Shown: piece by piece, positions 5,200-62,891 of the stretch
Layout of the letters: each line of letters starts with the position of its first letter
Numbering within the stretch: the first letter of the stretch is position 1
Source of the DNA: Emiliania huxleyi CCMP1516
Lineage: Eukaryota
Assembly (NCBI RefSeq): GCF_000372725.1
Contig: NW_005202428.1
Location: 1,783,331 to 1,847,330, forward strand
Length of the DNA: 64,000 bases
Direction: 5' to 3'
Made by a program: the position numbers and the translations under genes
The notes under the pieces: generated by a model
What the model was told of the DNA's origin: nothing
The model's input: the letters and a program-made list of their open reading frames with translations, nothing else
The model's database searches: none

Positions 5200-7127
5200 T
5201 TATCTCAGACCCCTCCCTAATGCCACACCGACGACCGAAGCCACGGCCACCGCCGCGACGGTGGCGACCCTCGCGTCACTGTTGCAAGCCTCAACACAGC
5301 TATCAAAAAGCAGACAGCTCCTGGCATTGGCGACTACGCGAGAACAGGCAAAGGAAGCGCTGCGCCACATTTGTGTGGCAAGTTGGCTGGCATCCGGCGC
5401 CTTGTCGGGGAATGGCCGGCCGTCGACGTCGAGATGCCACGGGGTGGCGACGCCCCACGGCGGCTTGCTCGGCGGCGGCCCCGCCCTGGGCGCGCTGTGC
5501 GCCTCCTCGATCGTGCTCGAGCCGTACGGCAGCACGACCGGGTCCGTGTTGATCCTCATCTTCATCGCGCCCTCGACGGACGCCTCGCTCACCACCATCA
5601 GGAAGCCGCCACCTGCGCCCGAGAAGAGGCAGCCCGCTGTGTGCGGGAAGCCGTGCCGCGCGACGAAAGCGCGCAACTCCTCGGACTTGGCCGCGTCCTT
5701 GCCGCGATACGGGTCGGTCGTGTACGGCAGCATCGCCTAGCACCGGATTCGCCGAGATGCACCGATGGAAAGGAGCGGATACGGGCGTGCGCGGCTTCAT
5801 CGCCTCCCACGCCGCCATCGTGTCGGAGAGCGCCTTGCCGAGCTTGGCGGCGTCCATGGCGAGGATCGCCTCCCACGCCTGCTCGGAGGCCTCGGCGAGG
5901 GTACGCACCATCCGCACCTTCTCGGCGAGCGGCACGGACGGGTCCTTCAAGCGGTTCACCTCCTGGCTGTTGTACCCGGGCGGGCGGGAGACGAAGGGGA
6001 TGTCGACGATGTGCACCACCCGCTCGAGCCACGCGAAGATGGCCGCCTGCCTCGGGTCGGCCGGGTCGCACAGAGAGACCACCGTGTGGGGCCAGTGGCG
6101 GCCGCCAGCGTAGCACAGCTTGTTGACGCCTGAGAACAGGAGGCCACAGTGGTCCTGGCTGCCCGCCCAGTAAAGCCGCTCCTCGGTTGCCGCCGCGTCG
6201 AAGTTCTCGGCGCCCCACAAGAACTGCGCCGCTCGCAGTGGCCCGAGGTGCTTTGGCATGCCGCCGTTCCACAGCTTGGCCGCCCACTTGCGTGACGACG
6301 TGGCGAGGCCGCACTCGTCGCGGCAGATGCCCTCGTGGAAGGCAATGTTGATGGTGATGGCGCAGCCCGACCAGAGCTCGTTGCACCACTTGAGGTCCAT
6401 CCAGCCGCCGCAGAAGCAGAAGCGCCACGGGAGCGAGCGGTGGAAGGCCTCCATTGGCAGCTGCTGCTTGGCTGCATCCTCAGCCGCGAGCATCTCCCGC
6501 AGCCGCTCCTTCATCGAGGTCGACGATCGCTCCTCGAGGCCGGGCGCGGCCTTGCGCGGCGCGACGACGATGCGCACGTCGAGGCCCGCCTGCCGCCAGA
6601 CATCAACCATTGCTCGTTGACGAGGCGTCGCTTCTCGCTATGTCTCGGCTATGTCTCGGACCGATCTCGGCTAAATCTCGCCTTCTCGAAGAGGCTCATC
6701 CGCTCCTCCAACTGCGACGCGTCGTCGTTGACAAAGTAGATGTCGGGCCGCAGCTCCTTCGCGTCCTCCACAAAGTCGAACCGGCCGCTGCCGACCGACA
6801 AGGCCGCATTGTGCACGCCCTTGATCTGGCGCACCATGAAGAGGCGCTCCTCGTCCGAGTACATCGGCGCGCGCCCCTTGAGCGCCTGCACGTTGTCCGA
6901 CGTTCCGATCCGGACGTACAGCTCTCCAAGCGTGGCCGCCTACGTCACGCGTCGTGCAGCGGCTCACACCTCTTGCGGAGGCTCACACCTCTTGGTGTGG
7001 GTGCAGAGGCGTGGCCGTGTCGTGGAGCGGCTCACACCTCTTGGAAGAACTCGACGTGGCCGGAGTGGAGGAGATCGAAGCAGCCAGAGACGAGCACCTT
7101 CTTGGCGCTGCTGCCTGGCCATTCCAT
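5200..7127 (-). CDS. Cytidylyltransferase (HxGH) - GHMP-kinase-like fusion protein, about 4 exons
   Basis: Exon 1 reads KKVLVSGCFDLLHSGHVEFFQE (nucleotidyltransferase signature), then YSDEERLFMVRQIKGV and RSSTSMKE. GHMP-like motifs follow: PWRFCFCGGWMD, GLATSS, AGSQD and SGAGGGFL. Introns lie at about 6940-7038, near 6620-6685 and at 5737-5803. The C-terminus is hydrophobic. Confidence 0.85.
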
Positions 7128-7373
7128 CCCACCTGGCGTGGCACCGACGCCCACTGACCGACGCCAGCTGACCAACACCACACCGATCTCCAGGGCTAAG
7201 GGGGGGCGAGGCCGGAGGAGTATGACGGCCTCTTCGACGACCCAAAAGGCGCCGTCTCCTGTGCCTTTTGTGGTGCCAGACGGATCGAGGAATTCTTTTG
7301 ACCGTGAATCGTGTCGTGCGACCGCCTTGCGTTCTAAAATTCTTTTGACCGGAAGGATGCACAGCTGCCCGGC

Positions 7374-8534: not shown

Positions 8535-9607
8535 CGCCCTTAAGGCCTCGCTCTTCGAGGCCGTGTCTCGCTACGCCGCGAAGCGCAGCGAGAGACTAAG
8601 CGAGGAGCAAGCCTTCCGCTCGCTGGCAAAGTGTCCTGCGCCGACGCCGGTGCCGAGCGAGTTTGTCGCTTCGGCGCTGAACCCGGAGACGCAGTAAGGC
8701 CGTATAAGTCGTCATCTCTTGTATAAGTCTAGAGAGGTGAGATAGATGTGTGTCGCCTCGAGTGTGTCGCGGAGGTCTCGAGACGTCGAGAGAGCGGCTT
8801 GATGAGTGTGCGCGAGCGCGTGCGTGGCTGGCGCGAGTGATGATCGTACAGAGTGTCAGTCATGGTAGAGTCAGTCATGCTAAACACGAATAAATGTCCA
8901 CGACCGCTCTCGCAACCAACTTCCGCTACTTTAGTGGTCGGCCGCTCGCAGGGTGTGTGCGTCTGCGTGGCCGGGCGCGCGGGGGCCGCGGCCCCCGGCC
9001 CCCGCGGGCCCGCATCGATGGACGATGCCGCGGCCCGCGCTCTCACACTGTGTGCCTGAGTGTGGGATGTCAATGGTCGCGCGCGGCCACCGCGCACCGG
9101 CCTCGCGAGCGCGCACTTGCACTTTGCACTCGCTTGCCTGCACAGTTTTGCACACTGATGTATAGGCTTGTGGTCCTGCCCTGCCGCATACTGCCGCACA
9201 ACTGCCCTGCCCTGCCCTGCCCAATCCCCTACCTGCCCCGGGTGTGAAATCCACACTGCCCTGCCCTGCCCTGCCCACACTGCCGAGGTGTGAATAGCCG
9301 GCCTCTCCCGAGGTCTCGGAGAAACTTCTCTCATACGTATATAGTTTTGTCTCCCCTCTTCGGCTCTCTAGTCTCCACACAAGAGTCCACATGTGTCATT
9401 TGTCAAGCATATGCGCACAGCTGTGTTCCTGAACACAGTAGCTGCTCCTCCCGCGACTGTGTCCACGACAAGTACGCAAAGTAGTAAGTACGTTCCCCCG
9501 AACGCGCATTGCCATTGGCCATTGCAATTTGCATGCACACCATGCACAAACGTTTCCCCACCTTCCAGCTGTGGCACTCGTGCACGCGAGGCTCCACGAG
9601 TGCTCGC

Positions 9608-10778: not shown

Positions 10779-10831
<53 letters not shown>

Positions 10832-12053: not shown

Positions 12054-12076
12054 CTACTCGCAGCTAGGCGCCACCC

Positions 12077-22746: not shown

Positions 22747-24558
22747 ATGGCCGCCCTGCGCCGCAGCCTCGTCGCGCTCGCGCTGGTCGATCACCAATGG
22801 GCGCGTGGAGCCGGCACGCATGTCCGGCGTTATGCAGACCCGTGCTCACAGCCTCTGCTGCCGGTTCGAACCTGCCCGGTGCTTGCATATGGGAGAAGGC
22901 TTGGGTGGGCGATGCAGGCTGGACAAGCAAACAGAGTAGGAGGAGGGCTGAGAAGCTGCGCACACTCCAGCGACAGCGCACACGCGGTCGCCACGGAGGA
23001 CCGCCCACCCCTCAGCCTCCCGACCCCACACAAAGGTGCTTGTCTACGTGTATCTGCTGCCGCCTCCATGCGCGGATTGGGACCCAGAGGGCGAGGATGC
23101 GTTCGACGAGGCGTTCGGCGAACTCCGCGACGCGCGGCTGCCACACCTACGCAACACATCCAACCGTGCCCTCACCACGCTCTGGCACTACCGGTTGCAC
23201 TACTCGCAGTGCCGCACGCAATGCGCAGAGGCGCCTCGCCGCCCTACACGCATTCTCCGCAGCTCGCGCCGCCCCAAATCTGCCCACGCTCCCCTCGTGC
23301 CTGCAGGCGGCGGACATTTTCTTCATTCCGACGCTGACAGCGCCAAAAGACTCGCAGGGGGGCATCGGGCGGGGATGTGGCAGCTGCGGTGCGAGCGAGC
23401 TGCTGCGCCATCTCCCGCACCTCCGGGCCGCGACCGCCGCGCGGCACGTGCTCCTCTGCCCGCTCGAGCACTTTGCGATGAGCGCCTGCGAGGGATGGTG
23501 GTCTCACCCGCAGGGCTTGCTGGCGGAGGCGCTGCGCCGATCCTCCTATGCCGGGACGTCCCCCACGGCCGTGGCACTGGGCACGGCGCGTCCCATAGGC
23601 GACGCGCCTCTCCTTCTCGGCAATCGTCCCGCCGGCGATGCAGCCGCACATCTCGTACATGCGCCGTCCAAGCGAGCGGGAGGCACTCACTGCGCCGGAG
23701 ACGTACCCGCACCTATACTCGCTGCCGCAGCCGAGCATCGTGCACTGGCTGCGACGGGCGCCACCCTTCACACCCTCCGACGAGCGACCGTACCTGATGT
23801 CGTACGCGGGCAGCCGGAAGGGCGACGTGGCGGTGAGGCGGCTCGTTGCTGATTACTGCAACCGCTCGAGCGGTAGCAAGACGTGTTTGATGCCGAGCTC
23901 GATGAAGACGGTCGAGGTCGCATTCGTCAAGATGAAGTCCGTCTTCTGCCTCGAGCCCGCGGGCGACACGCCCTTTCGCCGCTCGATCGCGGACTCGGCG
24001 GCCCTTGGATGCATCCCGGTGCTGATGAACAATGTGTCCGATCTCACCGGCAACCTAGTCTGGGACGACTGGCGCGAGCAGTCGCGCGTCCTCCTGCCGC
24101 GCGACGAGCTAATATCCGGCCGCCTTGACCTCGGCAAGGCGCTTGCACGGCTGCCCAGGGCGCGCGTGGCGCTGATGCAGCACACCCTTTGGCTGCACGC
24201 ACGCAAGCTTCAGGTTTCATACGATGACGACCAGCGCGATAGCGTGTTCGCCAGCCTCTCCGGCATCCTCTCTGCGCGGGGACTGTCTCGCCTGCCGCGC
24301 GCCGCTGCGCCGCCCGTCACCAGGGGTGAGGAAGGCACCGGCGCTGGCAGCCGCAGCGGCAGCGGCAGCGTTGCCCCGTGCACGGATCTGCCCGACGTCG
24401 CGCACAGGGAAAGCTGCCGGGAGATCATGGACTTAGCGGCAGAGGTGTCTGCGCGGCGCAAGCGCGGCAGGAGGAATGCGCCCGAGGCGGACCCCGATTT
24501 AGGGAAGGTAACCCTTACCCGGGCCGGTGCTCGACGTAACAGAATGTACAGAAGATGA
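22747..24558 (+). CDS. Exostosin-family (GT47) glycosyltransferase
   Basis: LRVYVY, AADIFFIP and the GT47 core MKSVFCLEPAGDTPFRRSIADSAALGCIPVL. GC-AG introns are present, e.g. 23529-23598. Confidence 0.85.
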
Positions 24559-28473: not shown

Positions 28474-29931
28474 TCACGCCTTCCCAACTGCCTTCCCTGT
28501 CGCCTCCTCCCAGCCCAACGCCGTCGGGATGTCCTCATAGTCAAGCGTCCACAGGCGGACGGCGTTGTGCGAGGAGTCGTCGTAGCACTTGAAGCCGAGG
28601 AGCTGCTGTTGCGTGGGAGTCATACTCCTGGCCGCCTCGGGCGACACTCCGAGGCATCCCGCCTCCTCGGGCGTGAGCCAGCCTATGAGAGCCTTGCCGC
28701 ATCGTCAACTGACACGACTCCCTGCCCTCTCATCTCTGGCGCGAGCCCGCCAGCGACATACGAGAGGTGCAAACCCTGCCTCCACTCGCACTGGGTGGTG
28801 TTCGCGCCACTGCCGTGGATCACCTGGCGGAGCAGCCGCCACCCCACTCACCTCCAGAGGCTCTATGGTGTATTTTCTCGGAGATCTCGGCGTAAGGCCT
28901 TGCCGCTGTAGATCATGCCGCTGCCAGCCGGCATCACCGCCTGCGTCACGTCCTCAGGCGCCGCCTGGAGCGCGTAGTCCGGCCACGCGTGGCTGCCAGG
29001 CACCACGCGTGTCGCGCCCGTCTCCGCTCGAAAGTCGGAGAGCGCGATCATGCACGAGATAGTCACCTACATTGAGGCACTCTATTGGTGACGAACAATG
29101 AAGCGATGAATGGGTGTGCGGGTGCTTGCTAGAAAGGTCGCCGCGGGCGAGGCGGGTGAGGCGCAAAAGTGCGGCCAGTTGAGCGCGTCGCGGTGCAACC
29201 ACTGCGCGCGCTCGCCGGGGCCGAGACACATCATCTGCCCCGTGTTCATCCAATAGGACGTGCCTAGGTGCAGCGCCCGGGACAAAATTTGGCGACGCCC
29301 ATCTCTTGGCCGGTGCGCGTCAGGCAGACTGTTACAGTGGGGAAGGAGCTCGGCGTCAGCCATGCGCAGCAGCAGCGGGTGCACCAGCACGCGGTTCAAA
29401 AACGTTCGAGACCGTGCTGCGAGCCGGGTGAAGCGCACCGTGTTGCCGCCCCAGAAGGCCGCGACGTGCGCGTCCACCGCCTATGCGTGAAAATATCTAG
29501 TGTGCAAACACTAGTAGGAGACGCCGTGTACCGTGGGGCCTTGTTGTCCTAGCACGGGAGTACCCGTGTGGACCGGAGGCAGCAGCAAACACGAGTAGCA
29601 CGCGGGGCACGGACAAAGCTGCTGCCTTTGTTCCAGGCATTGCTGATTCGAAAGACTGCGCCGTCTCCCTGCGCAATGCCTCGACGTCGACCTGATCAAG
29701 CATGCCGCGAACCACCACGGCACCATCGCGCTCGAACGCGCCACGAATGTCCTCAAAGCTCACGCTGTGGTCAAAGCTTTGCAGCGGCTTGGCTCCGCCC
29801 TCCGCTCTGCTGTGTTTTGTCGCAGCTGCCGTTGCCGCTCGCGTCGCACCGAGCGCTGGCGTCCGAAGGACAGTACCCCTTCGCTGCGTATGCTGCGTGA
29901 GCCGCGCACGCGTAGCCCAGAGCAGTGCCAT
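28474..29931 (-). CDS. PhyH-family Fe(II)/2OG dioxygenase, Arg/Ala-rich N-terminal extension, about 6 exons
   Basis: FERDGAVVVRGML, PGERAQWLHRD, IALSDFRAETGATRVVPGSH, MPAGSGMIYSGK, VIHGSGAN and GWLTPEE..QQLLGF. Confidence 0.9.
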
Positions 29932-31553: not shown

Positions 31554-33134
31554 CTAGGCCTCGTCCTTGTACTCGTCGTCCTCGTCGCCCCCGCCATAGT
31601 CATCATCGCTGTCGCTGAGGTCCTCGTCGCCGCCGCCGGCCGCCGGCTGCAGAGCGGGGCGGGGGGCGGTCAGGGGCAGAGCGGAGGGGGGGCGGGGATG
31701 TTGGACCCGGCGACGTGGGTCTCTTGGGAGCCTCTCGGGCTCTCGTGTGGGCGTGGCGGGGCGCGAGACGTGTGGGGGAGTGTCAGTGCGGCGGGCGGTG
31801 GGCGGCTTTGAGCGGGATGGGGCGCGCCTCCGGCTCCGGCTTCTCGTACGGCGTGAGCTCCCCGGCCAAGAAGGCGCGCGCAAACTCACTCATCGTGTCG
31901 CCCGAGAAGGCGGCGGCGCCGTCGGCCGGCGCATAGTACTGCCCGCCGGCCGAGATGCCCATCAGGATGGTGTTTGGCTTGTCGGTCGGTAGGCCGTAGT
32001 CGCCCAGCTCGTAGCTCAGGTCTGTGCTCGACGCGACCGCGACCGCCAGCTTGCCCTTGAGCTTGGCCGCCGCCTTGCGCGCGCGCTTGAGCACGTAGCT
32101 GACGCCCTGGGCCGGGAGAGGAGCGGCGGTGGGTGCAGCGGCGGCGAGGGAAGCGGCTGCGCCGGGGCTAATCAGGCAGAGTGTCCAGGAGGCGCCTTTG
32201 CATTCTTCGCGAAGTCGAGGTTGAAGAAGACGACGAGTGTCGCGCCTAGCGCCGACACGTCGCCGAGGTATGCGCCGAGAGGCAGCCGAAGTCGGAGAAG
32301 GGGCGGCGGGCGGGGGGCTGCACCGGAGTAGCGCTCCTTGGTGGAGGAGGAGTAGAGCCCGACCAGCGGCTGCGCTTTGCTGTTGAGCCAGTTGCGGACC
32401 GCGGACTCGGACAGCTGCCGGGGGAGATGGAGGAGGGACAGAGGGTGGGGGGAAGGGCGGGGGCAGAGGATGGTGGGAGGGGAGGGGGGGTGGGAGGCGA
32501 GACACAAGGTGGGTGCTGGTGGCGCGTGCGCGCAGAGTTGTGCGCGTCCTTTGAAGACGGCGCTGTGTGTCCTCCTTCGTCCGAGCTGGGCCGCGTGTGC
32601 TGGCCGGCGGAGCACCTTTGTCGACGGGAAGCGCTCGCGCGGCTTGTCTCCGTGCTCGGCAGACAGAAACTTGGGCGAGCGGTAGAGGTAGAGGCCGCCC
32701 GTCTTGGACTTGAGCTTGGCGAGCACGTCGGGCGCCGCCGAGAAGGCGAAGCGGTAGTTGTACAGCGACGAAGCGATCGAGTTGAACGCGGCCAGCTCCG
32801 GGTTCGTGACAACGGGCGCCTCCCACGTTCCGTCCTCGTCCTCGTCCCAGTCCTCGGGCATGACGGCCGCCGGGTCAGGCATCTCCTTCTCGAGGAAGGC
32901 GCCCACCACAGACGCGTCGTTGTCATCCATGAAGGCCTCCAGGTCCGCGACCGACGAAAGCTCGCGCGCGGCCCCGTCTCCGGCCGGCGCCGGCGGAGGG
33001 TCCTCCTCCTCCTCCTCCTCGCCGTACCCACCGCCGCCGCCAAAGTCGTCTTCGCCGTAGTCGTCCTCCTGGCACGCGGCCTGGCCGGCGAGGCCGAGGA
33101 GCAGCAGCGTGAGCACGAGCTTGGTGAGCCTCAT
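31554..33134 (-). CDS. ER-resident PDI-like (b/b' thioredoxin-fold, no CxxC seen) protein with a calreticulin/calnexin P-domain insert
   Basis: Signal peptide MRLTKLVLTLLLLGLAGQAAC. PDI-b-like segments: ELSSVADLEAFMDDNDASVVGAF, AFNSIASSLYNYRFAFS, QPLVGLYS and EFARAFLAGELTPYEKPEP. Insert reads DPAAVMPEDWDEDEDGTWEAPVVTNPE. The acidic C-terminus ends KDEA*. Confidence 0.8.
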
Positions 33135-37691: not shown

Positions 37692-38926
37692 ATGGCATCG
37701 CTCACTGTCTTCGCACTCATGGAGGCCACCAACACCACCCGAGTTCTCGAGCACCTGAACGAGCTTCGCAAATTTGGCGGAACCGGTGGCGGCAAACGCG
37801 GTCTAGGCGTTTCCCGGCAGGCTCTTGCAACCGACGATCCGATCCACACGCTCCACGATTGACACTCCACGCTTGATCGACACTGCACACGCACTCCATA
37901 GACCTCACACAAATACACACCTGCAGGCGCTCACGCCGCCCGACATCGCGGCCCGTGAGTGGGTGATGGCGAGGATGGCCGACGCGGGGCTGGCGAGGAG
38001 GAGGATGGATGGCATCGGCACGGTGTACGGCGAGGGCGGCGACCCGTCGGCGCCGAGCCTTCTGATGGGATCACACACCGACTCGCAGCCCGAGGGCGGC
38101 TGGCTGGACGGAGGCGGCCCGCCGCTCCCCCGCCACCGCACCCGCGCCACTCGACACATATGCCACGAGTCCTCGGCATGTGCGCTGCGCACGCAACTCC
38201 GCCCGCCGCCCCGCAGCGCTCGGCGTCGTCTACGCCCTCGAGGCGGCGCGGGTGCTGCACGAGGCTGGCGCGCCGGGCGCGTGGTCCGTCATCGACTTTC
38301 AGGAGCGATCGCCCGAGAGCAGAGACCGCTCCCCGAGGTCCGTCCGAGGGCGTGGCGCGGCAGCATGCCGCACCGGCGCCCGCCTTCCATAGGACGAGGA
38401 GGGGCGGTACAACACTCTGACCGGCTCGCGTGTCTTTGCGCGCCACCTGCCGCCGCCGCTCGAGGAGCCGGCGGACAGAGCGACGCGGGAGAGGACCCCT
38501 CTCGGATGCACTTCCGGCGGCACCTCGCACGTAGGAGATGGCGGACGGCCGTGCGAGGGCGGGGCTGTCCGCGGCGCCGGTCCTCTATTGGGACTCAGCC
38601 CGCCCGGCTGGCTTTTCCGGCTACCTCGAGGCGCGAAGCAGAGAGCAAGCTCGCGGCAGTCTCGGGGCGCGGGACGGCGCAGCCTGACGCCGCGTGGACC
38701 GTGAGCAGGCCCACATCGAGCAGGGCCCGCGCCTCGAAGCCGCCAACGCGTCGCTCGGCGTTGTGACGGCGGTCGTCGGCCTCCGCCAGATGCGCGTCTC
38801 CTTCCTCGGGAGGCAGGTGGGTCGGCCACCTCCCGTCGCCTACACCTGTACCTGTACCTGTCCAGCCCCACCACCCTCGTAAGCCCCTCTCCAGCCTCAC
38901 AGCCCTTGCCTCCGCCGCGTCCGCTC

Positions 38927-38957
<31 letters not shown>

Positions 38958-40199
38958 TTCTTTGCTCCTGCCGCCGACACATCCTCCGCCACCCTCGCCT
39001 CCACCTCTGCCCCCCCCGCCTGCAAAGCAGCTGTCTCAAACTGCAGGACCACGCCGGCGGGTGCGAGATGCCCGAGCGGGCCGACGCTGCGCTCGCGGCG
39101 ATGCGGTGCTGCGAGGAGAGAGCGAGCGAGAGAGAGGCGTCGAGTCGGCGCCGTGAGGAGGAGCTGACGCACCGGCCACCCCGCGTGCCATAGGTACGCT
39201 AGCGGCCTCGACGCGGCGCTGCGACGGGTGTGCGACGCGCCGGAGGCGTGCGACGGCGCCGTCTGGACCTTCCCTGACCTGACGGGTGCTCGCTCTGCCC
39301 CCTTCGCCCGGCCGCGATCAGGATGATCGTGCCTCTCTGCCGCCTCTCCGCCACGGCTCCGCGCTTCGGAAGGCGCACTCGGCACCGTCGCTCGCCCGCC
39401 CGGGCTGCCCCGTCGCCGTAGGTTTCGTTTCGCACTCGACCATCCCAGGCGAGGCCAACCTCACGCTGCAGTTCCGCGCGCCGACCGAGGCGCCGATGGA
39501 GGAGATTGAGCGCCTCGCGCGCTCGCACTGCGAGGCCGATCGGTCGGCGCTCGGCCTCCCGCCCCTCTCGCACGCGCGGCCCGTGCGCTGTACAATCGTC
39601 CACGAGCCGTAGATGCGGGATTCAGACCCGCGCATTGCGACTAGCACTCTCGAAAGAGGACACGTGTTCGGCTGTATGAGGACCCGACCCCGGTGTTTGC
39701 ACGATGTAGGTCCACGAACGTCCGCCGGTGAGGGCGGCGCCGATGGACGACGAGATGCGATCGTGCGTCGAGGCCGCGCCTGCTCGTCGAGATCGCCCGA
39801 GGTTGACCGCGATTCACCGTGGCTGGCCGAGTTGTAGGCGGCCGCCCGGATCGCCGCCCCGTCGGCCGGTGCTGGCGCAGCGGGCACGCTCTGTGGCAGC
39901 TTGGGAGGCGAGGCTAGGAGCTTTCCCTGAAAGCTCTCGGACTCTTCCTGCTAGGCACGCTCGCGATGCCCAGCCGGGCGGTGCACGACGCGTCGCCCGT
40001 GGCGACGAGGATGCCGGCGGCGATGCTGTTTGTGCCTTCGGTGGGCGGCGTCTCCCACTCGTTTGATGAGCACACGCACGACAAGGACCTCGCCCTCGGG
40101 GCGCGCGCGTTCGTGGGCGCCGCGGCCGGGATTGTGTTGCAGCAGTGCGCGGCGACGCCGCCGGAGCTTGGACGCGTGTCAACTGTAATTCCCGCATGA
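37692..40199 (+). CDS. M20-family Zn amidohydrolase (allantoate / N-carbamoyl-amino acid amidohydrolase-like), many exons
   Basis: [39 protein letters not shown] and [27 protein letters not shown]. Confidence 0.9.
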
Positions 40200-41740: not shown

Positions 41741-44396
41741 TCACCCGATCTGCTGCATGATCTCGCGCATCCGCACGAGCGCGCGCCGCAGCCGGTCACT
41801 CGTGCTGCCCACCTCGAGCAGCGGCTGAACCGCGTCGTCGGTGGCCACGCCGATGACGCCCCACACGGCGTAGCTCAGCCTCTGTGCGCGGCGGCGTGCC
41901 GAATAGTGCGCGTGGTCGACGGGCACAAAATGGACCTAACGCGCGCACACACACACCCGCGGCGCGTGACTCCAGTGTGCGGGGGTGGGGGGGTGGGGTG
42001 TGGGGGGTGGGGGGGCGTGGGGGGCGTGGTCGAGGGAGCGCGCACCCAAGAGGAGAAAGAGTCGCCCTCGCCGTCTGCCTGCGCCGCCTCGTACCGCTCA
42101 CGCAGCTGCGCCTACGGGACGTGTCGCCGACAACGTCGTGGAGAGTCTCGACCCGTCCGTCCGGCGGGAGGCCGTCGTCGGCGCCCCCATCTTCGCGAGC
42201 TCGAAGTCGACGGGCCAGCCGCCCGCCTCGGGGGCGGGAGGCATCAGCCCGATGAGCTGGCTCGGCACGGGCACCTGGACACCGCAAGGACAACGGTCGA
42301 GGTCGAGGGGGAAATGGGGAAGGGGAGGTCTCTCCCCCCCTGCAATGGTCCCTTCTGTGATGGTCCATGGATCTTGGGCGCCACCCCACAAAACGACACA
42401 GAAGCGCGGCACGTCTGTGGGTGGAGAACGGGGCACCTGCTGCCCCTTGCCGCGCAGCCTGGCGATGGTGGCGAGGAGCCGGTCGAGCTCCAGCCACACC
42501 TGCGGCGGGCGGGCGGGCGGCGGTCGAATGCCGCGAGAGCGCACGATGCCTGGGCCTGGCGGGCGGTGTCCATGCGCCCGTGTGTGTGTGTGTGTGTGTG
42601 TGTGCGTGCGAGCGCGGTAGGGGAATGCTGTCGCGGCAAAGGAACGCTGTCTTCCGCACAAGCCCGCGTGGCGAGATTGCGCGACGGCCAGCACACTCGC
42701 CTGAATCTCGAGCGCCGCGAGCGCGCGCGCCGCCTCCGCCGCCGCCTCCGCCGCCACGGTCGCCGCCTCCTCCGCCGCCGCGCCCGCCGCCGCCTCCTCC
42801 GCCTCCTCCCTCGCCCGCTCGATGGCCAACTCGACCGCCTCCCGAACGGCCGGAGCGCCTGGAGCACAGCGCCCGGCGTAAAGAGCCGCCGCCCACGCCT
42901 CGAACTGACCCCCCCAGGCGGGCGCCGCGCCCGCGTAAAAGTCGCCCCGCCCCTCTGCCTCGTCGCCGCAGCGCTGCTCCTCCGCCTCCCACCGCGGCAG
43001 TCCGAGCGCGTCCTTGTAGCAGACCGGCCGCAACCCTCCGGGCGTGAGGGGCGTGCGGCCGAGCGCCGCCTGCAGCGCGGCGGGCTCAGCACGCGCGGTG
43101 GACTCGGCCAGGCGCGCGTCGACCTGCGAGAGAAGCGCACCAGGTTCTCTCCTGGCCACATTACGTACTCAAAGGGAAGGGGGGCAGAGGAGCGTGACTT
43201 GATTGAGCAGGAGCGGGACTGCGCTGTGGCGCGCTCTTCCACCTGGCAGAGGCTGAGGTGCATCGAGAGCGACAGGTTGGCGTGCTCGTAACCGCGCCAG
43301 TGCGCCTCCTCTGCCGCCGACGCGGCGCACGTCAGCCGGCGCTGCAGCTCGTGCAGGCGGTGCGTGCCTGCAGGGCATGGCATGGACTCGTCCTGGACGT
43401 GTCGCGTGTCGCGCCGCAGCCCGCGCCGTCGTGCGTGCCGTCCGTCTTCTCGGACCAGCCCGATGCCGCGAGGAAGCGGCCGGCGAGGCGCGCGCTCGAG
43501 AGCAGCTGCTCCTCGTCCGGGAGGATGGCAAAGTCTGCGCGTGCGTACGGCAGCGTCTGCGTCGCGCGGAGGGCGTAACCGCGGGCGAGCCCCTGCACGA
43601 GGAGGGTGAGTCGCGAGTCCGCCTCGCGCTGCACGGCGACGACCTGCGGCAGGGTAGGGGAGGGTGGTCGGGTGGAGAGGGCTCGGGCGGAGATTCTCGC
43701 GGCTGTGATTGGGCTTACGACTCCATGGCCAAGCGACTCCACGTAGCCCAACCACGCAAGCCCAATCACACAGTCTCTCTTTCTCCGCCTCGTGGCGAGG
43801 ACGCTCTGTCTCTCCGCCACGCCGCGCGCACACCTGCATGAGCGTCCCATGCAGCGCGGCGCTCGAGTCGGGCCGCAGCTCGTAGTCTGGGTTGTCGAGG
43901 TTCTTGATGCCGCCGGGCAGCTGCAGGTGCGCGTACCTGATCACAGCGCGGCGTGTGAAACGAGGCCGCCAGGTTGGCCGGGCAGCTGCAGGGGCGCGCA
44001 CAGCCATGGCTGTGGCTGCGCCAGCAGCTTCTCGAATAAGAGCGTGTACTGCGGCTGGAAAACATTGAGCACTGTCCGATGGTGGGGAAGCATGGCCACG
44101 GACCAACGGGTCGCTGGGAGGTCGAGATGAACGCCCACGCGCGCAGCATCGCGCGTGGCGACAACAGGTGTGCGTGGCAGTAATTTCTCCGACGGAGGAA
44201 CCTCCTCCGATACGGCCAGGAAGGAGCGGCGGATGGCCGAGAGGGCAGCGTTGCGTTCGGCATTGTCGCCGTTGCTCAAGTCTCCGCCTGGAACGGCCGT
44301 CATGCGCACGAGGCGGTGCGCTCTAGGGGGCGAGGCGGTCGAGCCTGGGCTCAGCACCACCGCGATGGTGGCCACGGCAGCTGCCGTGAGGAGCAT
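41741..44396 (-). CDS. Lon-protease N-terminal (substrate-binding)-like domain protein with signal/transit-type leader
   Basis: MLLTAAAVATIAVV leader; AMLPHHRTVLNVFQPQYTLLFEKLL; DSRLTLLVQGLARGYALRATQTLPYARADF; C-terminal QPLLEVGSTSDRLRRAL. No AAA+ or protease domain seen. Confidence 0.75.
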
Positions 44397-45781: not shown

Positions 45782-45918
45782 CAGTCTCACTCCCAATACG
45801 TGCATCACTTTTTTGTGACGGTGTCACAACTTTGATCAAGCATATCTCGATAACTACCGTCGACGCTTGATCAAAGTTGTGACACCGTCACAAAAGTGAT
45901 GCACGTATTGGGAGACTG
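45782..45918. repeat. Long near-perfect inverted repeat (foldback, about 52-bp arms, 23-nt loop)
   Basis: CTCCCAATACGTGCATCACTTTTTTGTGACGGTGTCACAACTTTGATCAAGC pairs with GCTTGATCAAAGTTGTGACACCGTCACAAAAGTGATGCACGTATTGGGAG. Confidence 0.92.
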
Positions 45919-45981
45919 TCCTCCTCTCCTGAATGCATACCTACGGAGATTGCATAGCCGAATGTCTTGATGATGTGGTGC

Positions 45982-53179: not shown

Positions 53180-53312
53180 TCCGAGATCGCCCGAGATAGC
53201 GCGGCGCGGCCCCGAGATCGCCCGAGATAGCGCGAGATCGCCCGAGATAGCGCGGCGCGGCCCCGAGATCGCCCGAGATAGCGCGAGATCGCCCGAGATC
53301 GCGCGGCGCGGC
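53180..53312. repeat. 10/11-bp minisatellite (CCGAGATCGC / CCGAGATAGCG)
   Basis: Tandem array read directly. Confidence 0.85.
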
Positions 53313-53648
53313 CCGGGGCGGGGTGGATGGGTTGGGAGCGAGGGGGCGGAAGTGATCAGTGCGGTAGAGGGTCAGCTCGAGGCGCGTGAGCCGGACTTGT
53401 GAGCCGGACCACCCCCTCTTGTTCTCTGCGTTGTTGAGCCAGGACTCAACATACTCGGGCTGTTGCCATCCCAAACTGTCACTCCCCTTTCTCCCGGCCG
53501 GGGTGGGGCGCGCGCGGGGGCGGCGGGTGTGAGGGATGTCTGTGAGCCCGAGAGCGATATGCCATGTCCGCCTTGCGTGTTTTCATAACATCGAAGGCTA
53601 AGCTCAAAAAAAAAGGCGCGGCTTACCTCGCTTGATGGCTGCCGGGAG

Positions 53649-55877
53649 ATGAAGCGGGCAGCCCACCACCTCCTCCTCCTGGCCGCCGCGTTGTCCGCTG
53701 CATCGCTTGCCACGCCGCCGCGTCCGCTGCGGCCCAACCGTGCGGCTGCGGACGCCCTCGGCGCCGCCGTGCCGTCGCCGCAGCTCGATCCCGCGCTCGT
53801 GGCAGAGCTAAGCGAAGCCGTCGCGCCGCCGCCGGGCGAGGCAGCGTCCGAGGCGGCGCTGCTCGACCCGGTCAAATTCGCCTTCAACACCGCCATCGTC
53901 GACTCCGTCAAGGGGCTGATTGACCTCGCGTATCCCGACCGGCCCTTTGCCCGCTTCTACGTCCTCGAGACGGCGGGCTCCCCACGGGCGCGAGCGGCGG
54001 CGTGCCGCGGCCTCGTCACGGCACGGTGGCGTGCGTGTAGGTGGCGCGCGTGCCGTACTTTGCGTACCTGTCGGTGATGCACCTGCGAGAGACGTGGGGA
54101 GAGCGAGACGCCTCTCTGCGCGAGCGGATGCGGGTCCACTATGCGGAGGCGCGAGACACTGCCCACCTTGCCTCAAGACGGTGTAGACACTTCGTAGACG
54201 TTCGCAGAAACGCCGCAGACACCTCGTAGACATCCGGTAGGCACCCGGTAGACCCCAGACCCCAGACACCTCCCAGAAGCCCCAGACTCCTCCTAGACAC
54301 CTCCCAGACACCTGCCAGACACCTCCCAGACACCTGCCAGACACCCTCCCTCCCAGACACCTCGTAAACACCTCACAAACCCTCCCCACACACACAGGCG
54401 GACAACGAGCTGCACCACCTGCTCATCATGGAGTCGCTCGGCGGCAACTCCTCTGCCGTCGACCGCGCCGTTGCGCAGGACAGCCACGCTCCTTCTCACC
54501 CCCTCTGACACCGCCTCCCCCCCCTGCACACGCCCAACCTCCCACGGCTCCTCCACCGTCGCGCAGGCCACCGCCGCGCACGCTCGCGCACCCTGCCGCC
54601 CCTGCCGCCCCCCTGCCGCCCCTCGGACACCCCCCCCCCCCTCCCTCCAGGGCCTCGCCACCGCATACTACTGGTGGGTCGTCTTTGTCTTTGCGCATGA
54701 TGAGCGCGCCGCCTACCACCTTAGCGAGCTCGTCGAGGCGAGAGACAGCCGAGAGACAGCCGAGATACAGCCGAGGTGCAGCCGAGATGCGGCCAAGGTG
54801 CAGCCGAGGGGCAGCCGAGGGGCAGCCGAGGGGCAGCCGAGGTGCAGCCGAGATACAGCCGAGGTCACGCACTACATCTCCCACGCGCACCGGGCCTTGC
54901 ACTCTAAATGGGTCTCCTGTCTCTCGGACGCGGGGCTGCACGAGGACCTGCCTGGCCCTCTCCCCGCCCGCCTTGTGTGAGGGGGGGGGGGGGGGAAGCG
55001 GACGAAGAGTGACTCAATCCACGGGTTCCTCCACTCGCCCGTAGGACCACGCGTACCGGACGTACGACGCCTTCCTCGCCTCGCACGAGGTCGAGCTGCG
55101 GGCGCTGCCGGTGCACATCTCGGCCACATCTCGGCCACATCTCGGCCACATCTCGGCCACATCTCGGCCACATCTCGGCCACATCTCGGCCATCTCGGCC
55201 AGGTCTCGGCCAGGTCTCGGCATAGACTAGATTCCTCCGCGCGACAAAGCAGGAGAGACTCGGAGCCCTGCTGGAGCCCGCCTGCAGGTGCCCGAGGTGG
55301 CGCGCCGGTACTACGAGCAGGAGAACCCCTTCCTGTTCGACTTGCTCTGCACGATCGGCGACGGGGAGGAGGAGGCGGCGGCGGAGGCGGCGGAGGCGGA
55401 GGCGGCGGAGGCGGAGGCGGCGGCGGGGCGGGGGAAGGGGCGCGCGAAGAGCAGTTGGATCCAATGGACCTATCGCAAGTGGGCTGGGGGGGCGGGGCCG
55501 CTCGAGCCCGCCGCCGCCGCCGCTGAGCCCGAGTGCCCGCGGAGGCCGCGGCTGCGCTCGCTGTACGACGTCTTTGTCTGCGTGCGCAACGACGAGCGCG
55601 AGCATTGGGGCGCGAGACATCTCCCCCCTCCTTTCCCGCCTCCCCTCCCCTCTCCCTCCAGCGGACACCCGGGCTGCCTCCCCTCCCCTCCCCCTCCACA
55701 GGCGCGATGAGCTCGCTCGTGTCGACGGGGACCGTGCGCGCCGCCGGCGCCGCCGGCGTCTCTTCCACCCGCCCGGCCGCCGGCACGGGGCTGGGCGCGT
55801 GGCTTGCGCCGTACCTGTCCAGGACGACGCCGCTGCCGCCCGGCCCGGTGGACGGAGGCCTCCGAGGGCGGCAGTAG
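53649..55877 (+). CDS. PTOX: Plastid terminal oxidase (alternative oxidase family), about 7 exons
   Basis: ARFYVLET|VARVPYFAYLSVMHLRET, ADNELHHLLIMESLGG, AAYHLSELVE|DHAYRTYD and SLYDVFVCVRNDEREH give the di-iron ligands. There is an N-terminal signal peptide plus transit-like region. Confidence 0.93.
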
Positions 55878-56442
55878 CGGCTGAGTGTTGGGGCAGCGCC
55901 AAACCTCGCGACAGCCGACATTTTCGACGGTGCTGTGGTGGCGTGCGCCGTCGGTGGCGGTGCCGGTGGGCGGTGGCGGTGCCGGCTTTTGGTCCGTTAG
56001 CTTCCGCGTTCTGGTGGGCCAGTGCGAGCGCCACCCCCGGATACGCGCATTTCTGTTTCTTTGTCGTAGGTATATTCTTTGTTGATTTTTTGTGCCTCCC
56101 ACCCAGCAAAGGAGACAAAACTTTTGGAGCACTTGGAGCACTTGGAGTGCAGTCATCAACCTCACATCCAGGGCCGGGTTCCCACTTTAGTACTCGATAG
56201 CGGTCACGCCGTAGCTCGCGCATAGGAGCAGGAGGCTAGGCAGAGGCCGCATCGCGTTCGCTGAGCTGTAACAAGTTTGATCCAAAACAAGAACACAAGT
56301 TTGACTCTACTAATATAGCGCGCGGATAAAGCGCGCGCGCCGCGGTGGCGGCGAAATATAATATTATCTCAGAGGAATATAGTGTGAATGCCCGGGAACA
56401 GCCCCTCCTGGCCCGAGTGCGGGGCGCGAGGGACAAATAAAT

Positions 56443-57170
56443 TCAAAGGGCATGAAATTCGTCGAGCTGCTTGATCAGGCCAGTAAAGATGGCCCGCGAG
56501 GCAGCCTTCGTGAGTAGGTCGGCGAGCATCACGACGCCGGGGAGGTGTTCGACAGAGATAACGCCACGGCTGACGAGATCGCGAAGAAACTCGGCGGCGC
56601 GCAAGATGTGCTTGGTCTTCTTGAAGGCAACGGGATCGAAGGCCATGCCGACGGCGGACTTGCTGTCGCAGTTGATGACGCTGGCGCCGTCGATGGAAAA
56701 TCCAAGGTCGATCAGTAGCTCACGGATGAAAATCACCTCCTTGGCGGCTAGCATGGCGCCGAAGAACTCTGCCTCGGCACTAGACAGCGTGACGGATCGC
56801 TGCATTTTGGAGAACCAGTGGAAGAGACATCCGTAGAAGAAGAACATGCCACCGGAGCAAGAATACTTCGTGGCCCAGTTTGAATCGACGTAGCTCTCAA
56901 GGTTGCGGTTGGAATTCGGCTGCATGACGAGGGCGCGGTCAGCTGTGTCGCGCACGTAGATAAGCACCCGGATGGCGGCTTTAAAATGCGACGGGCCAGG
57001 GTTCGTCATAAACCGAGCAAGCTGAGACGCGGAATAAGCAATATCGACGCGCGTCATATTGGCAAGCCACAGTAGTCCGCCGACGATGGCCATGTAGGCG
57101 GTGCGGAATTCGGACATCTCGTCGTATTCAACAGATCCAACGGCGGGCTGATCGTAAGTTGAGAAGCTTC
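56443..57170 (-). pseudogene. Ty1/Copia pol remnant: RT C-terminus plus RNase H
   Basis: YMAIVGGLLWLANMTRVDIAYSASQLARF, YVDSNWA, SKMQRSVTLSSAEAEF, CDSKSA, KTKHI and ADLLTK. No gag, protease, integrase or YVDD upstream. Confidence 0.93.
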
Positions 57171-58615
57171 CGAAGGAAGTCGCGATAGATGCTGACGCAA
57201 ACGATTGCATACGGGCACCCAAAGGAGATGGTGGTGGTAATAGGTGTCCAAATGAAGCAAACAGTTTTGACAGTAGTGCTGGTGATGACCTCAAAGGCGA
57301 CGAGGCATGCATACCTGGCGAAGTATAGGAGGGATCGCACGAAATCGTAGATTGCAAAGCCCCAAGCAACGAGCAGGATGATGCCGCATATCGCAAGTGC
57401 AGCTGGCGCAAGGCAAAAATACCAGTCAAAGACCCACTTGATTTGAATGCCCAGGTTGATGATCAGTAGCTTGGTATTTGCACCATAGTGTCGCAATCCG
57501 TACCACGCTTTGACAATCATAAGGCTGCTCATGGTCTGGTAAGCAAACAGGTCGCCAATTGTCAGCGCACTTGTCAGCAGGGAGTACGCAAGGAAAAGGA
57601 ACCCAACGAGAGCAAAGCAAAGAAAGAATGGCCAGATCATTCCCATCCATGTGGACTGTACCCGAGCGCAATTCTTGTTTGAGAACATATAGTTCCAATG
57701 GAGCTCGTATTTGACCCAATCGCGCTTGCCGCGTCGCCGAAAGTGATCAAGGCAAAGGGCTTTCGCAGCATCGGTGGTTCCATGGAGTGGCCAGATGATA
57801 CCACATGTCCCATTGTTGAAGGGCACTACCTCTGTCCCACTGCTCAAGGTCTCATGGTGCAATGCCTCTCCTGCACTCGGCGTGTCCGAGTGGTCCCGGG
57901 GAAGGACTTTCTGCCAAGGTGTAGGGTCAAATGTAGCGTTCCACGGTGAAACATTTTGGAGGCAAAGGAAGCCGTTCCCGTCGCATTGACCCAGAAGAAT
58001 GGGCAGCATTGAGTAATCCAGCAAAGGTGGCGGCGGCATGTGTGTCGCAGGCTTCCTATGGGGCTGGGTTGTCGCAGCAAGAGTCCCGTGCCTCGTGAAT
58101 TGTAGCGCCATCGTATTGGGCCATGAGTGCACCTGTATCGCGGGGCTGCGGAGGGCCAAAAATTCAGATTGGCCGCAGTGGGTGGATAAGGCCTCAGGAG
58201 CCGACTGTAGCGCGTGCTCCATCGCCTGGGAGGTAGTGTGAGTGGAGGCACACATGTCCTCAAGGTGTTCTGACCCAAGTTGCCAATTTATCGATAAATC
58301 TTTGAGAAATGAATTGTCGATGCAAATGGCGGGCTCGAACGTGCTCGACGAGACCGACTGGACCCATTGTTCAGATCCTTCGGCTCGATTGGGGTTGTGC
58401 TCGCACACGCCAGGCGCCCAGGTGGTGGCTGACATACATGGTGCAAGGCTTGTCCATGGTGGAGGTGCCATGGTGGTCGACGCTGTCATGTCGCTGGTGG
58501 TGTCGGCCTCGGCGATGCAGTAGTCGAGGCCGTTCTTCCCGGTAGAGAAGTCATACTCGATAGCGGTCACGCCGTAGCTCGCGCATAGGAGCAGGAGGCT
58601 AGGCAGAGGCCGCAT
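57128..58615 (-). CDS. Signal peptide + Cys-rich ectodomain + multi-TM protein carried inside the LTR element
   Basis: Uninterrupted ORF of about 495 aa from an ATG inside the 5' LTR (MRPLPSLLLLCASYGVTA). It has many Cys, sequons NVS, NAT and NGT, and hydrophobic helices (IWPFFLCFALVGFLFLAYSLL; FCLAPAALAICGIILLVAWGFAI). Confidence 0.7.
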   Translation of the reverse strand: MRPLPSLLLLCASYGVTAIEYDFSTGKNGLDYCIAEADTTSDMTASTTMAPPPWTSLAPCMSATTWAPGVCEHNPNRAEGSEQWVQSVSSSTFEPAICIDNSFLKDLSINWQLGSEHLEDMCASTHTTSQAMEHALQSAPEALSTHCGQSEFLALRSPAIQVHSWPNTMALQFTRHGTLAATTQPHRKPATHMPPPPLLDYSMLPILLGQCDGNGFLCLQNVSPWNATFDPTPWQKVLPRDHSDTPSAGEALHHETLSSGTEVVPFNNGTCGIIWPLHGTTDAAKALCLDHFRRRGKRDWVKYELHWNYMFSNKNCARVQSTWMGMIWPFFLCFALVGFLFLAYSLLTSALTIGDLFAYQTMSSLMIVKAWYGLRHYGANTKLLIINLGIQIKWVFDWYFCLAPAALAICGIILLVAWGFAIYDFVRSLLYFARYACLVAFEVITSTTVKTVCFIWTPITTTISFGCPYAIVCVSIYRDFLRKLLNLRSARRWIC

Positions 58616-58978
58616 CGCGTTCGCTGAGCTGTAACAAGTTTGATCCAAAACAAGAACACAAGTTTGACTCTACTAATATAGCGCGCGGATAAAGCGCGCG
58701 CGCCGCGGTGGCGGCGAAATATAATATTATCTCAGAGGAATATAGTGTGAATGCCCGGGAACATTAGTTCTTAGCAACCCCTTATTGAGAAGAAAATACC
58801 TCTCGTGGCGCTGTGCGCTGGCCTTCACACAGGGGCACTCACTCACAGCAACGCCGCCAGCAGCGCGACGCGCTCGGCCTGCTGAGAGAAGACCTTCCCG
58901 GACGGCAGTACCTCGAGAGAGAGAGAGAGAGAGAGAGAGTGTGTGTGTGTGTGTCACCCAAGGCTGCGACGACTGTTT

Positions 58979-60601
58979 ATGCGCCTGCGCCATGCTCGCC
59001 GGCTTCATCTCGCCACCGCCTTCCCAGAGTGGCGGCCTCTCGACTTCTTCCACCACGAAATCCTCCACGCCTCACGCAAGGAGGGCTCGCGGGCGCGCGT
59101 CGGCCGGCTACACACGCCGCACGGCACCGTGGAGACGCCCGGCTTTGTCGTCGTTGGAACCAACGGTGCGGTGAAGTTCGTCGACCATCATGCCGCCGAT
59201 GCAGCCGGCATGGAGCTGATGTTTAGCAACACCCTCCACCTAGAGGTGCACCCGGGCCCCGCCGCGGTTGAGGCGGCGGGCGGGCTGCACAAGTTTATCG
59301 GCCGTGAGTCGCGCCCGCTCATCACAGACAGCGGCGGCTTCCAAATCTTCTCATTCGCGCACAGAGGGCAGCGGGCAATGCCGGGCGCTGAGGAGGCGAA
59401 GGAGGACGGCGAGGACGGCGGCGCCTCGCTCAAGTCGTCGCGTCCATTCCCTGCGCGCCACAAGTACGAGGTCGCCGCGGCGAGCAGCAGGGACGGCCCT
59501 CCGCCGCCTCCACGCGTGCGCGTGAGCGAGGACGGCGCGTGATCCCCGCACCGCCACCCACGCCGCCGCCTTCCTCGCCACCCACGCCTCCCACGCCGCT
59601 GCCGCCTCTGGCCGCCACCCCTGCTGCCGCCGCCTCCCCAGGCGCCAGCTTCCGCTCGTACCGCGACGGCCGGATGCTGCACCTGTCGCCAGAGTCGACG
59701 GTCCGCTCTCAAAAGGCGCTGGGCGCAGACATCATCATTCCGCTCGACGACCTCCCCGGCGCTGCGACCGCCGCGACGTCGCGCTCGAGGCTGGGGCACC
59801 GTCCACGACCCGTCCATGACACGTCCTGTAGGCGCTTCGACCGCCGCGGCGCCGCTCGAGGAGTCCGTGGCGCGAACGCACCGCTGGGAGGCACGCAGCC
59901 TGCGCGAGCATCTGGGCGACGTGCGGCAGCAGGCCACGTCCCCGACACGTCCCCGACACGTCCCCGACACGTCCCCGACATTTGGGCGGCGTGTGGCAGC
60001 AGGCCATGTACGGGGTCATTCACGGCGGCACGGACGAGTGCGCGGCAGCAGGCCGAAGAGCCCGGCAGGGTCCCACGTCACGTCCTCGACCAGAGTGCCA
60101 TGGGGGGCGCGTAGGCGGCTCCGCTCGCTGTCGGTGGCGACACTGGCGCGGTGGCCCTTCGACGGCTTCTGCGTGGGGGGCTCGCTGGGTCGCGACCGGA
60201 GCGAGCTGGCTGCGCTGCTGCGGTACGTGATGCCGCTTCTGCCGCGCGAGCGCCCAAACCACTTGCTCGGCATCGGCGACGTCGAGTCGATCCAGGTGGG
60301 GGTGCGGCTCGGGGTTGACACCTTCGACAGCTGCTGGCCGACGCGGCTCGGGCGGCACGGCACCGCGCTCACGCGCCACGGCAGCCTCAAGGTGGGCCAG
60401 GCGCGCTACCGCGACGACTACGGCCCGCTCGACGCTTCGTGCGATGGCTTCGTCAGCAGACACCACTCCCGCGCCTATCTGCACCACTTGTGGCGCGCAA
60501 AGGAGCCGGCCGTCCACGGGCTCCTCACGCTGCACAACATAAAGTTCATGGCCGACCTGATGGCAGACATGCGCGCGAAGATCTGGCGCGACGAGCTCTA
60601 G
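58979..60601 (+). CDS. tgt: Queuine tRNA-ribosyltransferase (tRNA-guanine transglycosylase), about 5 exons
   Basis: ARVGRLHTPHGTVETPGF, NTLHL, LITDSGGFQIFS, QKALGADIIIPLDD, HLLGIG, GVDTFDSCWPTRLGRHG and RAYLHHL..LTLHN. Confidence 0.95.
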
Positions 60602-62866: not shown

Positions 62867-62891
62867 TCTGTACACACTGCATGAGTATGAA

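What the first reader, a model, noticed from the sequence alone, without database searches (positions are those of the whole stretch)
5715..60010. Window-wide pattern: short introns are diverged copies of their own splice junctions, suggesting intron birth by tandem duplication
Seen: in unrelated genes, 65-73-bp introns start with a copy of the next exon's start and/or end with a copy of the previous exon's end. Examples are Lon-N 43937-44001, TGT 59759-59831 and 59933-60002, the kinase fusion 5737-5803, GT47 23529-23598 (GCGCTGCGCCGATCCTCCT vs GCGACGCGCCTCTCCTTCT, 14/19), two PhyH introns and PTOX intron 1. Established: duplication of an AG|G-containing exon segment is a proposed but rarely documented route to intron gain. 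Inference: it may be a dominant mechanism here. It would also explain the many GC and GA donors, because the donor is simply the first bases of the duplicated exon.
Basis: partly seen in the sequence, partly recalled or inferred. Interest (0 to 1): 0.85.

Follow-up and report, generated by a model that had tools for sequence, protein, structure and literature searches.

The report
Algal introns copy next exon's start
In a bloom-forming alga, many introns begin with a copy of the first letters of the exon that follows (2 to about 30 bases), which likely marks introns born from small duplicating insertions and would explain why this species so often starts introns with GC or GA instead of GT.

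Summary
Real, but one-sided. The window is Emiliania (Gephyrocapsa) huxleyi or a very close relative. I mapped 46 introns, 24 from RNA. Six carry in-register copies of 17-33 nt (0.4 expected): five copy the next exon's start, one the previous exon's end. All six are among the shortest introns. Three of the six long-copy introns have no AG at the exon end, so plain AG|G tandem duplication fits one intron cleanly. The layout matches Introner-type gain (donor taken from the duplicated target, AG from the insert), known in dinoflagellates, but repeat length varies and no element family appears. TGT is intronless in several other haptophyte-clade loci; no presence/absence polymorphism was seen. Not found in print for this alga. 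The scan's earlier notes hold only related patterns on other DNA ('mirages'; GC-AG mini-introns). 'Dominant mechanism' needs a genome-wide test.

The parts
43937..44001 (-).
   Evidence: RNA joint in X13, X14, X15; DNA run X8 unbroken
59759..59831 (+). TGT intron 2, 73 nt, GC-AG; first ~30 nt copy the next exon; upstream exon ends CG; 3' end shares a 14-nt motif with intron 42112-42184
   Evidence: RNA joint X14; transcript-type protein P0001; L055
59933..60002 (+). TGT intron 3, 70 nt, GC-AG; the one clean AG|G tandem-duplication case: last 24 nt copy the previous exon (21/24), first 7 the next exon (6/7), middle is an 11-nt repeat (4.2 copies here, three more in L055)
   Evidence: RNA joint X13, X14
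5737..5803 (-). Intron 3 of the CTP-transferase/kinase fusion gene, 67 nt, GC-AG; first 22 nt copy the next exon (17/22)
   Evidence: homologues P0173-P0176; spliced frame open; no RNA laid
23529..23598 (+). GT47 intron 3, 70 nt, GC-AG; first 19 nt copy the next exon (14/19)
   Evidence: homologue P0187 continuous across it; spliced frame 502 aa; no RNA laid
28683..28750 (-). Last intron of the second PhyH gene, 68 nt, GC-AG; first 17 nt copy the next exon (14/17); upstream exon ends TG
   Evidence: by eye; no RNA joint shown
53973..54040 (+). PTOX/AOX intron 1, 68 nt, GC-AG; no in-register copy; internal copy of the spliced junction from 54023
   Evidence: by eye, spliced frame 387 aa
39598..39709 (+).
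   Evidence: RNA joint X14, X15; X8 unbroken
43368..43438 (-). Lon-N-like intron 3, 71 nt, GC-AG; first 8 nt identical to next exon start; upstream exon ends CG; not named
   Evidence: RNA joint X13, X14, X15
22879..23035 (+). GT47 intron 1, 157 nt, GT-AG; first 7 nt identical to next exon start
   Evidence: frame and homologues
55610..55701 (+). PTOX intron 6, 92 nt, GC-AG; first 6 nt identical to next exon start
   Evidence: by eye, open spliced frame
42275..42436 (-). Lon-N-like intron 7, 162 nt, GT-AG; first 6 nt identical to next exon start
   Evidence: by eye, open spliced frame 523 aa
42859..42930 (-). Lon-N-like intron 5, 72 nt, GC-AG; 4-nt exact start, 11/18 in register, weak gapped likeness to both flanks (whole-length test z 0.7, not significant)
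   Evidence: RNA joint
38465..38534 (+). M20 intron 4, 70 nt, GA-AG; first 12 nt match next exon at 10
   Evidence: RNA joint X14, X15
38303..38392 (+). M20 intron 3, 90 nt, GA-AG; next exon also starts GA
   Evidence: RNA joint X14, X15
59535..59641 (+). TGT intron 1, 107 nt, GC-AG; 4-nt exact start
   Evidence: RNA joint X13, X14
60038..60114 (+). TGT intron 4, 77 nt, GT-AG; no in-register copy; holds an 11-nt copy (from 60044) of the intron-3 junction
   Evidence: P0001
42112..42184 (-). Lon-N-like intron 8, 73 nt, GC-AG; 4-nt exact start; 3' 14 nt nearly identical to the end of TGT intron 2
   Evidence: by eye
55111..55287 (+). PTOX intron 5, 177 nt, GT-AG; 4-nt exact start; filled with an 11-nt repeat
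6940..7037 (-). Kinase-fusion intron 1, 98 nt, GT-AG; two extra internal copies of its own donor boundary (6993, 6974): mirage-like
37821..39837 (+). Span of the ten RNA-confirmed introns of the M20-family gene, an unbiased test set: donor dinucleotide equals next exon start in 8 of 10 (3.0 expected)
31647..32615 (-). Span of four introns of a thioredoxin-like gene: ordinary junctions, shared start 0-1 nt (counter-examples)
   Evidence: RNA contig pieces and 420-nt exon sum
58979..60601 (+). TGT gene, five exons; the only gene with DNA of relatives in hand

Best explanation
Many introns of this alga start with a copy of the next exon's first bases, and they were likely born when a short insertion into coding DNA duplicated its target site, so that the first copy became the 5' splice site and the inserted filler supplied the 3' AG. 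Shown: the copies, their removal from RNA, their exact anchoring at the donor, the lack of a matching copy at the 3' end, and TGT without these introns in relatives. Inferred steps: (1) a staggered break or templated repair duplicates 2 to about 30 nt of exon; (2) 35-60 nt of filler, often patched from nearby sequence or a 10-11-nt repeat, ends in YAG; (3) because this spliceosome accepts GT, GC and GA donors, any target starting G[T/C/A] gives a precise intron if the whole insert reaches about 65 nt; (4) the copy then decays, base +2 last because it is constrained in both donor and codon, and the intron grows by 10-11-nt repeats. A minority (TGT intron 3) arose by plain AG|G tandem duplication plus repeat growth. 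GC and GA donors would then be partly birth scars rather than only a result of high GC content.
For: 6 of 46 introns with in-register copies versus 0.38 expected. Unnamed introns: exact shared start 2+ nt 23 of 39 (13.3 expected), 4+ nt 9 (2.5), 6+ nt 5 (0.26), by intron/exon permutation that keeps the splice consensus; within-gene permutation of the 24 RNA-based introns: base +2 matches in 19 (11.1 expected), p 4e-4. Match falls with distance from the donor: 0.64, 0.62, 0.44, 0.36, 0.28 at +2 to +6 against 0.36, 0.47, 0.36, 0.24, 0.27. No 3' excess. Echo stronger where the exon lacks AG (9 of 18 versus 3 of 28). Long-copy introns are 65-73 nt in a range of 65-307 (p 6e-4). Phase 0 in 29 of 40; sites with G|G[CTA] or AG|G[CTA] in these coding sequences are phase 0 in 53% and 84%. 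TGT is one unbroken frame in L001-L006, which group with named haptophyte proteins at 99 support; L002 is a multi-gene eukaryotic contig; full-length TGT proteins also lie on 6-79-kb contigs from sources whose gene calls read into introns (P0344). In L055 the exon equals the intron copy at the base where the window's exon differs, so the copy predates that change. Legends of Figs S8 and S9 of PMC4028052 describe three other E. huxleyi junctions that slide by AG+GCC, 9+3 and 3+1 bases.
Against: Small sample: 46 introns in 11 genes; 22 lack RNA and 15 were placed by eye. All six long copies were named beforehand; 0 of 39 unnamed introns reach 13 of 18. 17 of 46 introns share fewer than 2 bases, including all four of the thioredoxin-like gene. 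No intron-less allele: X8 depth 0 at 15 of 15 joints shown, L055 has 4 of 4 TGT introns, so birth was not caught in progress. Orthologue evidence is one gene; the locus search ranks unbroken genes first (80 of 585 kept), L001 and L004-L006 are short and could be transcripts, and L002's neighbours are intron-poor too, so loss in relatives is possible. No DNA from close sister genera. A random filler should mostly give cuts inside a long duplication, yet five of six start within 0-2 nt of the donor: the source of the AG is unexplained. GA donors are rarer (3 of 46) than co-option alone predicts (25%).
Confidence: 0.55

Rival explanations
1. Decayed Introner transposons: non-autonomous elements that carry the 3' AG and take the donor from a 4- or 8-nt target duplication, now too diverged to recognise.
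For: Same architecture as Symbiodinium and Polarella elements with GHNN or GHN6 duplications. Two RNA-confirmed introns have exactly 8 identical bases and five have 4. Introners exist in Chrysochromulina. Two introns share a 14-nt 3' end.
Against: All-against-all alignment of 46 introns gives only low-complexity and 11-nt-repeat matches. Copies of 17-33 nt are far longer than the 3-9 bp cited for these elements. Young-looking introns (copy 85-92% identical) should still resemble their family. Emiliania is not mentioned in the main text of the Introner survey (0 hits; supplement not read).
Confidence: 0.15
2. Plain tandem duplication of an AG|G exon segment made most of these introns, and the 3' half was then remodelled.
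For: TGT intron 3 fits fully. Weak gapped likeness to the previous exon in Lon-N-like intron 5 and TGT intron 2. The window is rich in close direct repeats at all short distances. The route is shown in vivo according to PMC3443670. A synonymous change could have removed the exonic AG in some phase-1 cases (inference).
Against: In five of six long-copy introns the 3' match is 0-2 nt while the 5' copy is 74-92% identical; no likeness to the previous exon in any register overall (p 0.10); no AG at the exon end in three of six, and in 43937-44001 no synonymous change could supply it.
Confidence: 0.12
3. RNA-templated events: either a break near the start of an existing intron is repaired from spliced mRNA, overwriting its 5' end with the next exon's start, or a reverse transcriptase inserts the 3' tail of an excised intron (ending in AG) with a variable target duplication.
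For: Both predict exact anchoring at the donor with a ready-made AG, which five of six show; fillers of about 40 nt; the shared 14-nt 3' end of two introns in different genes (pattern chosen after seeing them); an internal copy of the spliced junction in PTOX intron 1. Variable duplication length in target-primed reverse transcription is recalled, not from a call.
Against: No filler matches another intron over more than 14 nt among 46; no poly(A); overwriting needs old intron positions, but TGT relatives are intronless; no LINE-type frame was identified in the window.
Confidence: 0.12
4. Chance, base composition or splice consensus in a GC-rich, repeat-rich genome, plus selection of the best cases by eye.
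For: High background of close repeats; donor consensus GYGC resembles common codons; long copies only in named introns; an earlier scan note on another protist reached this verdict for its junction repeats (e1-7377654).
Against: Pseudo-intron, across-gene and within-gene controls all exceeded, including in one unnamed gene with ten RNA-confirmed introns (8 of 10 versus 3.0).
Confidence: 0.06

Closest known systems
Introners that carry the 3' splice site and recruit the 5' site from the target duplication (Symbiodinium, Polarella classes 4, 5, 6, 8, 10; Gozashti 2022 PMC9860276, passages; bioRxiv 10.1101/2020.10.14.339549, passages; Huff 2016 not held, recalled only)
   Same: Intron start equals next exon start; GT, GC and GA donors; phase-0 bias; GA rarer than expected.
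   Different: No sequence family among 46 introns; repeat length varies from 2 to about 33 nt instead of a fixed 3-9; GC-rich fillers with 10-11-nt repeats.
Introns gained at double-strand breaks in Daphnia (PMC4202315, passages; review PMC3443670, passages)
   Same: Unique introns with a direct repeat shared with one adjacent exon and with internal repeats.
   Different: Daphnia repeats are 4-12 bp in AT-rich, polymorphic introns; here up to about 33 nt, nearly always on the donor side, and no intron-less allele seen.
Tandem genomic duplication of AGGT (Rogers model; PMC3443670, passages)
   Same: TGT intron 3: both splice sites from one duplicated AG|G.
   Different: Five of six long-copy introns copy one side only; three lack the exonic AG.
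Amphioxus 'mirages' (PMC3087553, passages)
   Same: Kinase-fusion intron 1 holds two extra copies of its donor boundary; copy number of intron repeats varies between alleles.
   Different: Mirages duplicate an existing boundary into the intron; the main pattern here puts the next exon's start at intron base 1, which a boundary duplication alone does not produce.
GC-AG-rich introns of E. huxleyi (PMC4028052: passages, section 15, supplement 1 legends)
   Same: 56% GC, 40% GT, 4% GA published; 25, 17, 3 (and 1 GG, by eye) of 46 here.
   Different: That paper ascribes GC donors to genome GC content; in what I read it treats junction sliding as a mapping matter, not as a trace of origin.

Membership tests
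Introner (donor from target duplication, AG from element) | Donor lies at the start of a duplicated exon stretch; 3' AG not from the duplication | tested here: met
   5 of 6 long copies and the short echo are donor-anchored; 3' side at background
Introner (donor from target duplication, AG from element) | Families of similar introns in unrelated genes | tested here: not met
   All-against-all of 46 introns, both strands: only low-complexity and 11-nt repeat matches; one 14-nt shared end. Window only.
Introner (donor from target duplication, AG from element) | Fixed, short duplication length (3-9 bp) | tested here: not met
   Exact shared starts 0-8 nt, imperfect copies 12-33 nt
Introner (donor from target duplication, AG from element) | Terminal inverted repeats (in some families) | not tested
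   No per-intron test was run
Introner (donor from target duplication, AG from element) | Phase bias predicted by co-opted coding bases | tested here: met
   Phase 0/1/2 = 29/8/3 of 40; 53-84% phase 0 predicted from G|G[CTA] and AG|G[CTA] sites; old proto-splice sites would give a similar bias
Tandem genomic duplication (Rogers) | Duplicated segment contains AG|G, giving both splice sites | tested here: not met
   Met fully in 1 of 6 (59933-60002); only AG shared in 2; absent in 3
Tandem genomic duplication (Rogers) | Intron matches next-exon start plus previous-exon end over its length | tested here: not met
   In-register 3' extension 0-2 nt in 5 of 6; previous-exon likeness in any register p 0.10
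Break-repair intron gain (Daphnia type) | Direct repeat shared with one adjacent exon, above the level of controls | tested here: met
   control is permuted pairs and pseudo-introns, not old introns
Break-repair intron gain (Daphnia type) | Intron absent from orthologues | tested here: inconclusive
   TGT unbroken in L001-L006, but one gene, a search biased to unbroken genes, no sister genus
Break-repair intron gain (Daphnia type) | Presence/absence polymorphism within the species | tested here: not met
   0 of 15 joints in DNA run X8; 4 of 4 TGT introns in L055; two samples only
Break-repair intron gain (Daphnia type) | Dependence on end-joining enzymes | not testable with these tools
   needs repair assays
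Mirage minisatellites | Tandem copies of an existing exon-intron boundary inside the intron | tested here: inconclusive
   Met for 6940-7037; not the layout of the six long-copy introns
U2-type spliceosomal introns of E. huxleyi | Removed from mRNA at G[T/C/A]..AG ends, present in DNA | tested here: met
   19 RNA joints and 5 contig-piece junctions; DNA X8 and L055

The most novel reading that the evidence does not exclude
E. huxleyi makes most of its introns without transposon families, by a repair or reverse-transcription route that copies up to about 30 bases of the next exon to make the donor and captures a ready-made AG end (an 11-nt repeat unit or the tail of an excised intron); its majority of GC and GA donors are the scars, and thousands of datable birth intermediates lie in its genome.
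Probability: 0.25. Interest if true: 0.85.

Novelty: new variant of a known kind. Interest (0 to 1): 0.62.

Why it matters
The source of most new introns is a long-standing open question; genome-scale gain has been traced mainly to Introner transposons, and duplication or repair cases are few. If the window is typical, about one intron in ten in a major ocean alga keeps a readable 17-33-nt birth scar, and most keep a 2-8-nt one, with no element family. That would give a large, datable set of intron births in a species with many strains and transcriptomes, and a mechanistic reason for its GC/GA donors. It also matters for annotation: the public TGT model P0123 reads into the copy in intron 2 and mis-splices the gene.

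Tried and rejected
No whole genome was available, so no genome-wide test. Searches for more DNA of this alga with two repeat patterns found 0 loci in viral contigs and 0 in genome contigs. The PTOX homologue search found nothing, so PTOX junctions rest on the open frame. Exact look-ups of 10 exon frames found 4 in the collection but no spliced transcript protein. Assembly artefact: rejected (L055, X8). Reverse-transcriptase template-switch artefact at direct repeats: rejected, because the cuts have G..AG ends and restore frames conserved in intronless relatives. Ongoing gene conversion between exon and copy: not supported at the one informative base. A whole-length rotation test gave z 2-3.7 for the long-copy introns but is driven by the one-sided copy, and Lon-N-like intron 5 was not significant. 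The 77-nt period in the ankyrin gene is a repeat unit short by 22 nt, not a duplication. In one search, 11 of the 15 joints shown were long jumps between repeats and were dropped; 45 and 18 further joints were not shown. PhyH introns near 29070-29150 and in the first PhyH gene, and the many introns of the gene at 9600-14500, were left out because they could not be placed without bias. The protein atlas did not answer. The TGT tree is the quick tree; the careful search did not finish. Literature: nine searches found no report of this pattern in E. huxleyi; subscription papers, including the genome paper and Huff 2016, were not held; PMC2784329, PMC12480563 and PMC13518057 passages had nothing on it; PMC11782384 was seen as abstract only. 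Figure images of PMC4028052 (junction logos) and the supplements of the Introner papers were not seen and may bear on novelty.


Full report
Organism and data. The TGT gene at 58979-60601 matches a spliced 432-aa protein at 99% (P0001), whose cluster holds a named Emiliania huxleyi protein; a PhyH exon does likewise. The window is therefore E. (Gephyrocapsa) huxleyi or a very close relative. Six RNA and several DNA runs hold the region. I laid four RNA runs on 44001-64000 and three RNA runs plus one DNA run on 28400-44600.

Intron set. 46 introns in 11 genes: 19 from RNA joints (15 of 15 shown; 4 of 15 shown, the other 11 being jumps between repeats), 5 from RNA contig pieces, 4 from the TGT and kinase-fusion proteins, 3 from GT47 homologues and 15 by eye. 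Spliced frames are open for TGT, the kinase fusion, the thioredoxin-like gene, PTOX (387 aa), GT47 (502), the Lon-N-like gene (523) and the carrier (315); the M20 frame runs 377 codons through all ten introns; PhyH was not tested as a whole. Donors: 25 GC, 17 GT, 3 GA, 1 GG, close to the published 56/40/4%.

Noticed in passing
window 56192-58763 (-): Young LTR element between PTOX and TGT: two identical 210-nt terminal repeats, a 5-nt target duplication, a copia-like RNase H remnant (recalled motif, no Pfam hit) and an unrelated 513-aa frame without Pfam hit. RNA contigs show loose ends at both edges.
   Followed up: partly
window 26307-26383 (-): Ankyrin gene with one repeat 22 nt short, which shifts the frame; a 77-nt GA..AG stretch here would, if spliced, leave an open ankyrin frame: a candidate intronization, no RNA laid.
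   Followed up: partly
window 9600-14500 (-): Intron-rich Agenet-domain gene; one intron end holds an exact 12-nt copy of the preceding mini-exon (12756 and 12688), and several donors seem to echo the next exon; junctions not verified.
   Followed up: partly
window 41936-42066 (-): Frame requires a GG donor for Lon-N-like intron 9; by eye only.
   Followed up: partly
window 53181-55221, 17748-18194, 59935-59980, 6633-6659: Families of 10-11-nt tandem repeats in introns and between genes, in both orientations, with copy-number change between alleles; period near one helical turn (inference).
   Followed up: partly
window 45790-45914: Near-perfect hairpin, 31-nt and 26-nt arms, MITE-like, beside a 45992-47530 element bounded by arrays of a short GCTGTCAG-type repeat.
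   Followed up: no
window 34900-37600: Very high depth in DNA run X8 (up to 41,000 against about 10 in genes): a high-copy repeat with a 419-codon frame lacking a Pfam hit, lying next to the nucleoplasmin-like gene.
   Followed up: no
P0123 against window 59759-60114: The public E. huxleyi TGT model reads into the copy in intron 2 and mis-splices introns 2-4.
   Followed up: yes
window 15810-16307 (-): Myb gene with 2.8 near-identical 180-nt coding repeats.
   Followed up: no
window 37719-40200 (+): M20-family gene with ten introns in about 2 kb; the spliced frame stops after 377 codons, so a further intron near 39910-39980 is likely.
   Followed up: no
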